64,000 nucleotides of DNA, taken from contig OX597814.1 of assembly GCA_951406725.2 (NCBI GenBank), forward strand, positions 219,294,001-219,358,000. Direction: 5' to 3'. The notes below the pieces were generated by a model. It ran no database searches. It saw nothing but the letters and a program-made list of their open reading frames with translations, and was not told where the DNA came from. This stretch comes from Octopus vulgaris (lineage: Eukaryota). Below, one piece after another: positions 6,302 through 44,113 of this stretch (position 1 is its first letter; every line of letters starts with the position of its first letter). A program made the translations under genes and the position numbers.

Positions 6302-6384
6302 TTCTCGACATATGTTTCGAAGGCTGCAGATTCCTAATTCCGAAGGAATAAGGAGTACATTATGCAGATTTCTCTTCGGGAAAA
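6302..6384 (-). ncRNA. Minimal type I hammerhead ribozyme motif (U4C core variant) in a (TA)n-flanked element at ~6095-6600
   Basis: Minus strand: UUUUC CCGAAGA gaaaucugca...ugcagccuuc GAAAC AUAU GUC GAGAA. Helices I and II pair; helix III is the palindrome ACAUAUGU. Confidence 0.7.
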
Positions 6385-7120
6385 TCAAGGAAACTTATGT
6401 CGACATCAAAATGCACAAAAATTTGAAGGGCTCCTGTTAGCAGGTCAGCTGAAACGTTTTTGTATTTTGATGTCGATATTAAGTTATATTTTCCTGAATA
6501 ATTTTGTTATATATTTCGGAATAATATAAATTAATTCGATATGTATTCGGCTTAAATTTTGTTATTGTTTGATTTTTCAGATAGTGGTTTTGTCTCAAAT
6601 TTAATATATATATATATATATATATATATATATATATATATATATATATATATATATATATATATATGTAGAAAAATACAAACTCGGACAAGAACGTAAA
6701 ACATTTAGAAGACGATACAAAAAACACGGACGGGACATTCGAAGCCTTAAATATTTAGTCAAGAACCGGATCATCCTAGAAATTTCGGCTGATTAATCTT
6801 GAGATCGCTCCGATCCGGCCAGCCCCAAGGAAAAACTAAGCTACGAGCATTAGATTTCTTGGAAGAAGGCTCGAATGTATACGAAACAGGGACAGAAAAA
6901 CGGACGATGCCACACGAATATAAAATGCAAAAAACAATAATGGTAAAAACAGGATATATATATAAATATATATATATATATATATATATATATATATATA
7001 TATATATATATATATATATATATATACATACCTACATATATATGTATATATGTACGTATGTATGTATGTATGTATGGCATGGTATGTATGTATGTATGTA
7101 TGTATGTATGTATGTATATA

Positions 7121-7493
7121 TAAGGCAAATAAGAAAATAGAGAGGATATAAAATTGACTAACATCAGTCAGTAAACAATCCATTATACTTATTTATTAAA
7201 TGATAACAAACATGTGTTTAAGTGGTACAAGTAAACGAATGAGATCAGCCAATAAATACATAAACAGATATATATATATATATATAGAGAGAGAGAGATG
7301 AATGAATAATAATAGATGAGTGTACGGATACAAATCACTTACGGCCGTTTCTACCATGAAGCCTCAGAATCTTCCAATCTTACTTGAACCACTTAAATAC
7401 ATGTTTGTTATCATTTAATAAATAGATATAATGGAATGTTTACTGGCTGATGTTTGTCGATTTTATATCCTCTCCATTTTCTTATTTGCCTTA
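7121..7493. repeat. Fold-back element with ~113 bp inverted arms around a degenerate hammerhead 3' half
   Basis: Arms at ~7121-7233 and ~7381-7493. The spacer holds TACGGCCGTTTC (7340-7351), i.e. GAAAC GGCC GUA on the minus strand. Confidence 0.75.
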
Positions 7494-7740
7494 TAAATTG
7501 TGGGTAAATTTCGAATTTACCCCCACCCATCCCTAGTATTCAATTGCACTATTGTCATGCAATAGTAAGCACTTGGTTAGAAATACGTATGTGTACATCC
7601 AGTAGTATACTGGATATTTAATATCCCTTAGATGGTTTATTAACATCTAATATATATTCATATATATATATATATATGTGTGTGTGTGTGTGTGTGTGTG
7701 TGTGTGTAAATATAATATGTGACAATTATTCGGTAGCCAT

Positions 7741-7801
7741 GATAAAACTCCGAGTTTCGGATGTCGGAGCGGAAACCCACCACGGTATCTCTTCAGTTAT
7801 C
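7741..7801 (-). ncRNA. Type I hammerhead ribozyme motif (intact core) inside a 53-bp-arm fold-back at 7705-7918
   Basis: Minus strand: GAUAA CUGAAGA [imperfect helix II] GAAAC UCGGA GUU UUAUC. Helix I GAUAA/UUAUC is perfect. Confidence 0.75.
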
Positions 7802-8600
7802 GGGCTATCAAAAAATGCTATGAAAATGACCGTTAAACAAAGGGAAATTACTGTGTTGCATAGTAAAACTCGGAGTTTTATCATGGTTACTGAATAATTG
7901 TCACATATTATATTTACAGATAAATTCCTCTATTAACATAATATCGAGGTCTCTTTCATTCTTTTGTTGTCTAACCATTTCTATCAATGTATGTGTGTGT
8001 GTGTGTGTGTGTGTGTGTGTGTGTGTGTGTGTGTGTGTGTGTGTGTGTGTGTGTATAAAGAGAGAAATTGAAGTATTATTGGCAGAAGCAAAAGCACCAT
8101 ATGTATGTATGTTTGCGTGTTTGTATGCATACATGCATGTACTTATGTATGTATGTATGCATGCATGCATGTATGTCTGTATGTATGTATGTATGTGTAT
8201 TTGTGTGTGTGCGCAACTGTATGAGTGTGTATAGGTTTATGTTTACAACCAAACAACAGATTGCTCAATACATGGTGTACAGTTTACGCATTATAAGTTG
8301 TATCATAGGTTACAGATAGGATCATATGTTTTTTCCTTTATTTTATTACTTGCCCTTGAAACTTATGATATAACGAAAATAATTTGTTAACATAGGAAAC
8401 AAATCCGGGGAAAAATTGTTGAAATTTTTCTGGTTTGATATTTTGTAAATTTCAATTTCAATATTCTGAAGTTTTCCTATTCAAATAAGAATATATTACG
8501 GTGAACCCTCGTTGAACCGAACTAATAAAAGAAAGGATTTTCTGTTTTATCCAATTGTCTAAGTTAACCGACAGGAGGGCTTATTACTGTATACGTACAA

Positions 8601-9190
8601 AGGGCGGCAAGCTGGCAAAATCGTTAGCACGCCGGGCAAAATGCATAGCGGTATTTCGTCTGCCGTTACGTTCTGAGTTCAAATTCCGCCGAGGTCGACT
8701 TTGCCTTTCATCCTTTCGGGGTCGATTAAATAAGTACCAGTTACGCACTGGGGTCGATCTAATCGACTGGCCCCCTCCCCAAATATTTCGGGCCTTGTAC
8801 CAAGAGTAGAAAAGAATTATTAGCACGCCGGGTGAAATACTTAGCAGTATTTCGTCTGTCTTTACGTTCTGAGTTCAAAGTCCGCCGAGGTTGACTTTGC
8901 CTTTCATCCTATCGGGGCCGAAAGTACAAGTGAAACACTGGGGTCGATATAATCGACTGGGCCCCTCCCCCAAAATTTCGGGCCTTGTACCAAGAGTAGA
9001 AAAGAATGGTTAGCACGCCGGGTGAAATACTTAGCAGTATTTCGTCTGTCTTTACGTTCTGAGTTCAAAGTCCGCCGAGGTTGACTTTGCCTTTCATCCT
9101 ATCGGGGCCGAAAGTACAAGTGAAACACTGGGGTCGATATAATCGACTGGGCCCCTCCCAAAAAATGCTTTGTGCCTTCAGTAGAAAGGA
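8601..9190 (+). mobile_element. Three tandem SINE B units, the last two near-identical (190 bp period)
   Basis: TAGCACGCCGGGTGAAATACTTAGC starts at 8821 and again at 9011, and both units share the same diagnostic variants. Confidence 0.85.
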
Positions 9191-9299
9191 TTATTGTACA
9201 CGTACACTATATTGGCAATATAGAAACAATGACGCTATATCAATGTCTCTATATCAATGATGATACAGAGACAATAACACCGCTTGAGTTTGATATGCA

Positions 9300-41770: not shown

Positions 41771-41939
41771 TATAAAGATGTAGCTTATCACTAGTCCAAT
41801 ATAATTAAAAAAACTAAATTTGATTTCGATTAAAACTGAATTGGAAGACACCGACTGCGACAAAAAAAGCAACGTTAAGAATATTATTCAACTGCTACCG
41901 TAGTTGAATGATATGATGGAATTTTTTTTTATTTTTTTT

Positions 41940-42211
41940 ATGCACCCTTTTCAAGCCTAGCTAGGCTCATGGGCTCGGTCTCCATGGCGTATGTGTGCCC
42001 CCTCCCCTGGACGGGACGCAAGTCCATCGCAAGGTTACTCATGAAACAGGAAGAAAGAGTGAGAGAAAGTTGGGTGCGAAAGAGTACAATAGGGGTCGCC
42101 ACCGGAGCCTCGTGGAGCTCAATAAACACACACAACGCCCGGTCTGGGAATCGAAACCGCGATCCTCCCACCGCGAGTCTGCTGCTCTATCCACTGGGCC
42201 ATTGCGCATCC
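41940..42211 (-). mobile_element. Chimeric SINE: family C head and body with a family D tail
   Basis: 42040-42211 matches family C; 41940-42040 matches 25402-25510. Confidence 0.8.
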
Positions 42212-42228
42212 ATGATGGAATATATTTT

Positions 42229-42437
42229 GGAGCTGGCAGAACCGTTAGCACGCCGGGCGAAATGCGTAGCCGTATTTCGTCTGCCGTTACGTTCTGAGTT
42301 CAAATTCCGCCGAGGTCGACTTTGCCTTTCATCCTTTCGGGGTCGATTAAATAAGTACCAGTTACGCACTGGTATAATCGACTTAATCCGTTTGTCTGTC
42401 CTCTCTGTGTTTAGCCCCTTGTGGGTAGTAAAGAAAT
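42229..42437 (+). mobile_element. SINE family B
   Basis: GAGCTGGCAGAACCGTTAGCACGCCGGGCG...GTGGGTAGTAAAGAAATA. Confidence 0.9.
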
Positions 42438-42909
42438 AATAAATAAATGCTTTGCGTATGTAATTTGCTTGAACTATTAATTTAAGCTTGAAATTCGAAA
42501 AAACTTTTGATTCAACTAGATACACATCTAGCGAAAAAAACAGTAGCGGAGGGCTTGTGTACCCACATTCGTGTTAATTGCTTTTATAGACTGGTCCTTC
42601 AGATATGAAACTGGATCCATAAAGATAATTATAATTCGATAAAATATTCATGTTTTTAATTTTGGGGCTCTTCATTACATTTATTACAGGCCTTCCATCC
42701 GCTTGACCCAGCGCTGGTAGTGAGCTATTAAAAATGGTTGGGTACCAGATTAAATTTATTATCAGTTCTGAGCTGAAATCTGGCAGGAATTTATTCTTCT
42801 TTGCCCCAGTCTCAAAGCTTCCACATCCGAACAATGATAAAAGCCTATCTGTGATGTTTCTCCCACGCAAGTCAAATTCATGACACGAATCAGAACCTCA
42901 GCCGTCATT

Positions 42910-43790
42910 TCACTTTATGTTTGCTATTTGAAAAGTTATATGACAACTTACTTCTTTTAAGATATGATTAAACATTTTTTCACGCTGAGAGTTGCTGAAG
43001 CATGGAACAAACTGCCGGTATCGGTTATTAGTTGTCGGAGCACTGCATCCTTCAAAACTTCCATGCTTCCTGAGATTCGCCAACACTACACTTGATTTTC
43101 TCCCCTCCATACACACACAAGCATGTATCTGACTCATACATTGTTCGCTTTCCAGACATTTCTACATTACTGCATGTACTTTATACGCACTTTCTGACAA
43201 GTTGTGGTGCACCTGAGCACTGTATACAATAATTTCATTATTATATTATTATTATTATTATTTATGAGTGTCATTGGATAAGTAATATTTTTCTCGAGAA
43301 GAGTTGCATATGAACCAGATTTGATTTTCAACTGTAGACATTTCCGTTCATTTACGCTGCTTGTACATCTTTCTTATAAAATATAATTATATGACATTCG
43401 TCTCGTTTGGAGGCGTGACCATAGTTCACCGAGAACCTTATCTCTAATTCGTAACACATTAATTAAATGGGACTGACTCCTTTTGCAAGCAAACTTCTCA
43501 ACGATGGTAATCGAAAAGTTTCTTATAAATGTCACCACAAAATAATGGGTTTTCTCCAATTTGCCTTTTGGAACTACCTCATATGGAACTACCTCATTTT
43601 TTCACGCTCAGAGTTGCTGAAGCATGGAATAAACTGCCTGCGTCAGTTGTTGACTGCCATGACACTGCATCCTTTAAGGCCCTCATGCTTTCCGAAATCC
43701 GCCGAAACTACACCTGATTATATATACACTTTAGATGAGTTGTAGTGCACCTGAGCACTGTACACAATTATTATTATTATTATATATTAA
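42910..43790 (+). mobile_element. Two 3' ends of a CR1/L2-group LINE
   Basis: FFTLRVAEAWNKLP occurs twice (~42975, ~43597), each followed by the tail GTGCACCTGAGCACTGTA and (ATT)n. Confidence 0.8.
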
Positions 43791-43859
43791 TTAATTATAT
43801 TACGGAGATGTACTTGCATAGCAAGTGACCTAATCTGAGATCGTGTGCTGGAACGAAAG

Positions 43860-44113
43860 CAATTGCAGCGTGTAAGGTGTTTATAAGCCATTTAAGAAAC
43901 ACACAAAAACCGTTCGATTCACTTCAACATTTAAATTTAATTTGTCAAAGTATTTTCGTCGCTTTGAGACCGCGACCTCTTCACTGACAAAACTTCGTGC
44001 TGCATCAAAGCGACGAAAATATTTTGAAAAATTAAATTTAAATGTTGAAGTGAATCTAACGGGTTTTTTTGTGTTTCTTAAATGGCTTATAAACACCTTC
44101 CACGCTGCAATTG
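43860..44113. repeat. Fold-back element with 108-bp arms enclosing a hammerhead-like motif (43941-43991, minus)
   Basis: Arms at 43860-43967 and 44005-44113. Minus strand: UUUGUCA GUGAAGA G GUCGC...GCGAC GAAA AUAC UU UGACAAA. Confidence 0.8.

What the first reader, a model, noticed from the sequence alone, without database searches (positions are those of the whole stretch)
6302..44113. Recurring architecture: an upstream antisense copy of the ribozyme's own 3' half
Seen in apparently unrelated elements, read in ribozyme sense: 7866-7918 pairs with 7705-7757, starting exactly at the AAAC of the GAAAC box; 44005-44113 with 43860-43967; 25750-25782 with 25810-25844; 13390-13414 with ~13496-13518; 6390-6403 with 6305-6318; 26098-26203 with 26258-26370. 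The arm covers the GAAAC box, the cleavage site and/or the downstream tail. Inference: either a by-product of PLE reverse transcription (inverted partial pLTR, self-priming), or a built-in switch in which read-through transcripts fold the ribozyme off while internally started ones cleave. It would also supply long dsRNA in a lineage with heavy ADAR editing.
Basis: partly seen in the sequence, partly recalled or inferred. Interest (0 to 1): 0.75.

Follow-up and report, generated by a model that had tools for sequence, protein, structure and literature searches.

The report
Back-to-back Penelope retrotransposon insertion scars
Four of the six mirror-image arms are variable-length reversed second copies of a Penelope-type jumping gene's end, a layout already described for this class and likely laid down during insertion, and the other two are ordinary parts of their elements, so a built-in ribozyme off-switch is unlikely.

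Summary
All six pairings exist and each sits on a hammerhead-like core from a different repeat family. They are not one architecture. Four (7866-7988, 44005-44114, 25750-25782, 26027-26203) are inverted, 5'-truncated second copies of the element's 3' end, the published head-to-head layout of Penelope-like elements (PLEs). In position-ordered samples, 40 of 87 and 43 of 78 loci carry an arm. Inner ends scatter (36 positions over -255..+131; 30 over -30..+158), and 0 of 40 and 1 of 43 fall at the cut site. Outer ends take two fixed positions, with the tail on exactly one side in 37 of 38 and 36 of 38. Target-site duplications enclose arm plus partner. A full-length relative has RT-like and GIY-YIG-like domains. 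The other two 'arms' (6390-6403, 13390-13414) are fixed sense sequence; the 14-mer disfavours the ribozyme fold only in a minor subfamily, and the other is chance-level. Editing and cleavage were not testable. The scan reported this layout before on other DNA. Residual interest: strict tail reciprocity and 2 of 19 mixed-subfamily arms hint at two-strand, two-template priming.

The parts
7705..7856 (-). Family A sense copy: 5'-truncated PLE 3' end (pLTR), short 3' end, followed by (CA)n; intact type I hammerhead core, C3 at 7796, predicted cut after 7746
   Evidence: 1814 exact core matches genome-wide
7866..7988 (+). Family A inverted 5'-truncated copy (about +39 to +161 from C3) including the tail; 9-nt filler at 7857-7865
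43800..44004 (-). Family B sense copy with tail; hammerhead-like core at 43984 (family G3-C8, this copy G3/G8)
44005..44114 (+). Family B inverted copy, short 3' end, inner end in the stem II loop
43787..43799 (.). 13-bp target-site duplication, first copy
44115..44127 (.). 13-bp target-site duplication, second copy; the pair encloses arm plus sense copy
25801..25929 (+). Family C sense copy with long 3' end, core at 25804, in (TA)n
25750..25782 (-). Family C inverted copy, eroded at its outer end; about 18-nt filler to the sense copy
26254..26371 (+). Family F sense copy, core at 26257, long stem II, 3' end cut short
26027..26203 (-). Family F inverted copy (+1 to +182), GAAAC deleted
13333..13545 (+). 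Family D sense copy, core at 13437; contains the supposed arm 13390-13414 as ordinary sense sequence
13253..13330 (-). Real inverted piece at locus D: tail plus a fragment of the 5' region; does not cover the ribozyme
6090..6424 (-). Family E sense copy with long tail, core at 6379 (U4 mutated); contains the fixed 14-mer 6403-6390 abutting the 5' strand of stem I
   Evidence: 300 exact core matches
6428..6497 (+). Degenerate (80%) head-to-head family E piece (-69 to +3)

Best explanation
The long arms are inverted, 5'-truncated second copies of each element's 3' end, likely made in the same Penelope-type insertion event as their partner, and any blocking of the hammerhead would be a side effect rather than a selected switch. 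Shown: two fixed outer ends, scattered inner ends, the tail on one side only, one target-site duplication around both halves. Inferred mechanism: the endonuclease nicks both target strands, reverse transcription starts once at the short start site and once at the tail start site, each cDNA stops independently (often near the RNA's 5' end just upstream of the ribozyme), and the two are joined head to head by microhomology or filler. The two short 'arms' are ordinary family sequence.
For: Family A, loci taken in chromosome order from a core pattern (90 loci, 3 duplicate halves or cluster neighbours dropped): 40 of 87 have an upstream inverted copy within 600 nt, 36 distinct inner ends from -255 to +131, none at the cut, tail on exactly one side in 37 of 38 classifiable (Fisher p 6e-10). 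Family B (90 loci, 11 passenger copies of one insertion and 1 duplicate half dropped): 43 of 78, 30 distinct inner ends from -30 to +158, 1 of 43 within 3 nt of the cut, 13 of 43 start 3' of it and leave core and cut site uncovered, reciprocity 36 of 38 (p 2e-8); duplications of 9 nt or more in 10 of 13 non-microsatellite loci against 2 of 156 mismatched flank pairs. Family E shows the same pattern in 10 of 11 insertions, counted by eye. L392 is a full-length relative: inverted copy, pLTR plus tail, 717-codon frame, pLTR plus tail; in L394 and L395 the inverted copy carries more than 1 kb of coding sequence. Published: inverted 5'-truncated copy and one-sided tail are typical of PLEs (PMC8557442, passages; PMC3846280, passages); a PLE protein cleaves and extends both strands from two start sites matching the tail (PMC11167929, parts 1-2 of 4); opposite-strand hammerhead pairs 100-700 bp apart were noted in PMC4209133 (parts 1-2 of 4).
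Against: Inner ends are not uniform: 26 of 40 (A) and 26 of 43 (B) arms cover the whole core, clustering just upstream of it; sampling by core pattern over-counts such two-core insertions. Most arms do cover GAAAC or the cut, and folding predicts that read-through RNA would lose the hammerhead stems. An ORF link was shown for families A and E only, not for B, C, D, F. Pfam found no family in the 717-residue frame and PDB no match; domain identity rests on motifs and on Atlas look-alikes. C, D and F samples were chosen by similarity to the window and are biased. Priming order and template number are inferred.
Confidence: 0.88

Rival explanations
1. Same by-product, but made by fold-back self-priming of one molecule (the model of PMC3846280) rather than by two primings at the target.
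For: Arms resemble their own partner more than other copies (96.5% against 93.2%, n=30); 17 of 19 family-B arms share the partner's stem II loop type; 13 of 43 junctions overlap by 2 nt or more.
Against: The arm often holds tail sequence that the partner lacks, and the reverse, in 37 of 38 and 36 of 38 cases; in 2 of 19 the arm comes from another subfamily (L187, L200); 18 of 43 junctions carry filler. Later gene conversion could explain the two mixed cases.
Confidence: 0.25
2. Family E alone carries a built-in inhibitory stem: a fixed segment just 5' of stem I pairs with GAAAC, stem III and the cut site, so longer transcripts would not cleave.
For: The segment is sense family sequence, present in 25 of 30 position-ordered loci; its duplex beats all but 9-14 of 1000 shuffles; in the window's subfamily it widens the gap between the free fold and the hammerhead fold from 1.2 to 5.1 kcal/mol; one diverged relative (L082) keeps a similar partial complement.
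Against: In the major subfamily (the window type is 4 of those 25) the gap stays 1.6 kcal/mol with or without it; two older relatives lose pairs without compensation (L077, L188); p about 0.01 is one of seven families tested; the other families show gaps of 1.3 to 12.9 without such a segment; no other family shows it.
Confidence: 0.1
3. All the arms are a selected switch that silences the ribozyme in read-through transcripts and feeds ADAR.
For: Arms are common (about half of loci) and are predicted to form very stable hairpins.
Against: Boundaries scatter; 47 of 87 and 35 of 78 loci have no adjacent arm; 6 of 40 and 13 of 43 arms miss the cut site; two of six window cores are already mutated; metazoan PLE hammerheads need a dimer and cleave weakly or need protein (PMC4209133, PMC11167929), so lone copies need no off-switch.
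Confidence: 0.04

Closest known systems
Insertion units of endonuclease-positive Penelope-like elements: inverted 5'-truncated pLTR, one-sided tail, 8-10 bp target-site duplication (PMC3846280, PMC8557442; passages read)
   Same: Head-to-head orientation, independent 5' truncation, tail on one half, duplication around the whole unit, (TA)n targets, full-length relative with C-terminal endonuclease.
   Different: Tails here are about 60-160 nt rather than 30-40; duplications 10-14 bp in family B; most units are stubs of 150-400 nt; reciprocity is counted here rather than described.
Minimal type I hammerheads of metazoan PLE pLTRs (PMC4209133; parts 1-2 of 4 read)
   Same: Palindromic short stem III, short stem I, variable long stem II, thousands of lone copies, opposite-strand pairs.
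   Different: Family B has G3-C8; the parts read report only U3-A8 as a natural swap, as do the passages read of PMC3088659.
Poseidon element of Anolis in vitro (PMC11167929; parts 1-2 of 4 read)
   Same: Two reverse-transcription start sites that define the tail; both target strands cut and extended.
   Different: That study saw no strand difference in start site, whereas these insertions pair one short start with one tail start almost always; different PLE clade.
LINE-1 twin priming (recalled; search listing only)
   Same: Two primings at one target give an inversion inside one duplication.
   Different: In twin priming the two parts are consecutive pieces of one RNA; here both parts repeat the same 3' end.

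Membership tests
Endonuclease-positive Penelope-like elements | [quoted passage not shown] | tested here: met
   Family A: 717-codon frame with RT-like motifs and C-terminal endonuclease-like part; Atlas look-alikes GIY-YIG (0.96, 0.93) and RVT_1/HTH_animal clusters (0.95); no Pfam or PDB hit. Family E follows two different ORFs, one with a weak GIY-YIG hit, E 0.012.
Endonuclease-positive Penelope-like elements | ORF link for families B, C, D, F | tested here: inconclusive
   No coding sequence was identified in the sampled flanks; membership inferred from the insertion layout.
Endonuclease-positive Penelope-like elements | Direct pLTRs flanking the ORF | tested here: met
   L392 (A relative) and L433 (E).
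Endonuclease-positive Penelope-like elements | Inverted 5'-truncated copy at the 5' end | tested here: met
   40 of 87 (A), 43 of 78 (B); also C, E, F.
Endonuclease-positive Penelope-like elements | Optional tail on one end | tested here: met
   37 of 38 and 36 of 38 reciprocal.
Endonuclease-positive Penelope-like elements | Target-site duplication around the whole unit, or microsatellite target | tested here: met
   10 of 13 against 2 of 156 controls in B; 13 bp in the window; family A nearly always in (TA)n/(CA)n.
Neptune/Nematis clades | Phylogenetic placement of the RT; cysteine-rich linker before the endonuclease | tested here: inconclusive
   Cysteine linker visible in both ORF types (PMC8557442 passages); no tree built; clade names for the motifs are recalled.
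Minimal type I hammerhead | Conserved core with stems I and II and palindromic stem III | tested here: met
   Read directly in all six families; patterns give 1814, 5015 and 300 matches against 0 for reversed controls.
Minimal type I hammerhead | Self-cleavage | not testable with these tools
   No raw reads available.
Ribozyme conformational switch | Fixed, conserved antisense segment in the element | tested here: not met
   Variable in A, B, C, F; fixed but ineffective in the major E subfamily; chance-level in D.
MITE / non-autonomous DNA transposon | Fixed terminal inverted repeats with symmetric ends | tested here: not met
   Family B looked fixed among best hits but inner ends vary and the ends are asymmetric in the position-ordered sample.
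Non-LTR retrozymes | Head-to-tail tandem arrays of hammerhead units | tested here: not met
   The six window loci are single or head-to-head, none in a tandem array; definition from 10.64898/2026.07.22.740005, part 1 of 5.

The most novel reading that the evidence does not exclude
These stubs record the Penelope insertion mechanism: a dimeric particle primes both nicked target strands, one half always at the short start site and the other at the tail start site, on two RNA molecules that can come from different subfamilies. That would replace fold-back self-priming as the source of PLE inverted ends.
Probability: 0.3. Interest if true: 0.5.

Novelty: already known. Interest (0 to 1): 0.2.

Why it matters
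The architecture is ordinary for Penelope-like elements and should not be read as a ribozyme switch. It matters modestly in two ways. First, how PLEs make their inverted ends is still called undefined (PMC8557442), and thousands of young stubs in one genome give countable constraints: near-perfect tail reciprocity, occasional mixed-subfamily arms, 5' ends clustered in front of the ribozyme rather than at its cut. Second, about half of several thousand loci per family could form 50-200 bp hairpins if transcribed, a plausible but untested source of editing substrates.

Tried and rejected
Rfam scan: dominated by microsatellite matches to miRNA models, no hammerhead in the rows shown. The repeat finder was swamped by (TA)n. 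A family-B pattern with the canonical C3..G8 core gave 0 matches. Best-hit samples are biased to window-like copies and made family B look like a fixed palindrome; rejected after position-ordered sampling. Twelve family-B loci with an identical junction share flanks and were counted once. Enrichment of arm ends at the cut site: 0 of 40 and 1 of 43, rejected. Sequencing runs: no RNA holder listed; contigs of four runs laid on 6080-6520 cannot show starts, cuts or editing; no verdict. A general hammerhead descriptor over 1.5 Mb missed most A and E copies because of bulged stem II and found none in the window, so it was not used for counts. Family-A subfamily comparison of arm and partner (11 of 15 alike at two sites) was too noisy to use. 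Monomer folding predicts poor hammerhead formation even without arms, so fold energies are weak evidence. Lunse et al. 2017 on PLE hammerhead variants is not held and may describe G3-C8 or upstream pairings; Arkhipova 2006 and Evgen'ev and Arkhipova 2005 were not read; no supplements were read. Searches for a described upstream inhibitory stem in pLTRs and for PLE arms as ADAR substrates in octopus listed nothing specific by title or abstract start.
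Full report
The observation. The six pairings are in the sequence and each adjoins a hammerhead-like core. I label the families A (7796, minus), B (43984, minus), C (25804, plus), D (13437, plus), E (6379, minus) and F (26257, plus). The window lies in a 2.8-Gb animal genome; a cephalopod host is my inference and was not tested. Each locus belongs to a dispersed repeat family: core patterns give 1814 (A), 5015 (B) and 300 (E) exact matches against 0 for reversed controls, and C, D and F each return many copies.

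To avoid picking window-like copies I took loci in chromosome order from the pattern lists. Positions count from core base 3. Family A: 90 loci, 3 dropped as duplicate halves or cluster neighbours. Forty of 87 have an inverted copy upstream within 600 nt, 34 within 45 nt. Inner ends take 36 values from -255 to +131; 4 lie between +35 and +55, none at the cut. Outer ends fall at about +91..98 or +160..174, the same two places where sense copies end. In 37 of 38 classifiable insertions exactly one half carries the tail (p 6e-10). Family B: 90 loci, 12 dropped (11 passenger copies of one insertion with shared flanks, and one duplicate half). Forty-three of 78 have an adjacent arm, with 30 inner ends from -30 to +158; 1 is within 3 nt of the cut and 13 start beyond it; reciprocity is 36 of 38 (p 2e-8). 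Duplications of 9 nt or more enclose arm plus partner in 10 of 13 loci outside microsatellites, against 2 of 156 mismatched flank pairs; the window's B unit has a 13-bp duplication. C, E and F repeat the pattern (C and F samples are similarity-biased). Arm counts are lower bounds, and core-based sampling over-represents insertions with two intact cores.

What the elements are. Long family-A copies run upstream into endonuclease remnants. A protein search found frames up to 717 codons. L392 has, in order, an inverted copy, a pLTR with tail, the frame, and a second pLTR with tail; in L394 and L395 the inverted copy includes over 1 kb of coding sequence. Pfam and PDB gave no hit; the Atlas gave GIY-YIG and reverse-transcriptase look-alikes. 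Family E follows two different PLE-like frames. No coding link was found for B, C, D or F. The layout matches published descriptions: an inverted 5'-truncated copy next to the 5' end and a tail at one end (PMC8557442, passages), a tail on one of the inverted pLTRs and 8-10 bp duplications (PMC3846280, passages), and opposite-strand hammerhead pairs (PMC4209133).

The two short arms. 13390-13414 is ordinary sense sequence of family D; in two other copies its pairing is matched by 67 and 254 of 1000 shuffles. The true inverted piece there is 13253-13330 and misses the ribozyme. 6403-6390 is fixed sense sequence of family E, so it is the one real candidate for a switch. Its duplex is stronger than all but 9-14 of 1000 shuffles, one of seven families tested. 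It widens the gap to the hammerhead fold from 1.2 to 5.1 kcal/mol in the window's subfamily, but that type is 4 of the 25 sampled loci that retain the segment; in the major type the gap is 1.6 with or without it, and older relatives lose pairs without compensation. One diverged relative keeps a partial complement. I put a functional stem at about 10%.

Mechanism. Shown: the geometry above. From the literature: a PLE protein cuts and extends both target strands from two internal start sites that define the tail, and ribozyme cleavage is not needed for insertion in vitro (PMC11167929). Inferred: each strand primes one cDNA, one from each start site; each stops independently, often 5-45 nt upstream of the core; the two are joined with overlap (13 of 43), flush (12) or filler (18). 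Arms are closer to their own partner than to other copies (96.5% against 93.2%) and share its loop type in 17 of 19, so the source is usually the same; L187 and L200 mix subfamilies, which fits two templates or later conversion. Fold-back self-priming (PMC3846280) remains the main rival.

Consequences. Read-through RNA would form long hairpins that remove the hammerhead stems, but lone metazoan PLE hammerheads are weak and need a dimer, monomer folds are poor even without arms, and window copies B and E are mutated in the core. Public data could not show transcription, cleavage or editing.

Verdict. A real but known feature. The by-product reading is supported, the general switch is not. Earlier notes of this scan reached the same reading in other genomes and noted the G3-C8 core in this genome; I tested both points here independently.

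Noticed in passing
window 43984-43948 (-); family B: The family core has G3 with C8 (98 of the first 100 of 5015 matches of a pattern that required G3; the C3..G8 pattern gives 0), with a predicted UUU cut triplet. A natural G3-C8 swap was not in the papers read; the laboratory double mutant is partly active. The scan noted it before in this genome.
   Followed up: partly
L104, L264 (U3-A8) and L328 about 987 (A3-U8): Other hammerheads in sampled flanks show U3-A8 and one A3-U8, so all four pairings at 3-8 may occur in this genome.
   Followed up: no
families A, B, C, 5-25 nt upstream of the core: 5' ends cluster at an AG preceded by a branch-point-like, pyrimidine-rich stretch; in B, 10 of 16 copies truncated there have an extra G where longer copies have C or T. 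This suggests a splice acceptor or a capped transcript start; a pLTR intron ending at helix I is reported in PMC4209133.
   Followed up: partly
   Followed up: partly
window 7122-7492, 18035-18319, 23693-24052: Further inverted pairs: an F-like degenerate hammerhead unit, and two PLE-like coding remnants with short inverted ends.
   Followed up: no
L433 against L434/L435: The same family E pLTR follows two unrelated PLE-like reading frames, one with an asparagine-rich insert, suggesting pLTR exchange between families.
   Followed up: no
L188, L215-L218, L220, L235, L252-L254, L257, L260: One family-B head-to-head insertion with its flanks is amplified as a passenger of a larger unit: 12 of 90 sampled loci.
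   Followed up: no
window 27791-28234 (+) and 45705-46430 (+): Host genes: an IL17-family exon (Pfam E 1.6e-05) and an uninterrupted Ras-family small GTPase frame (E 4e-54).
   Followed up: no
window 11402-11470 (-), 4965-5401, 27303-27722, 38507-38826: Another degenerate hammerhead and three inverted-repeat elements of unknown type, one MITE-like.
   Followed up: no
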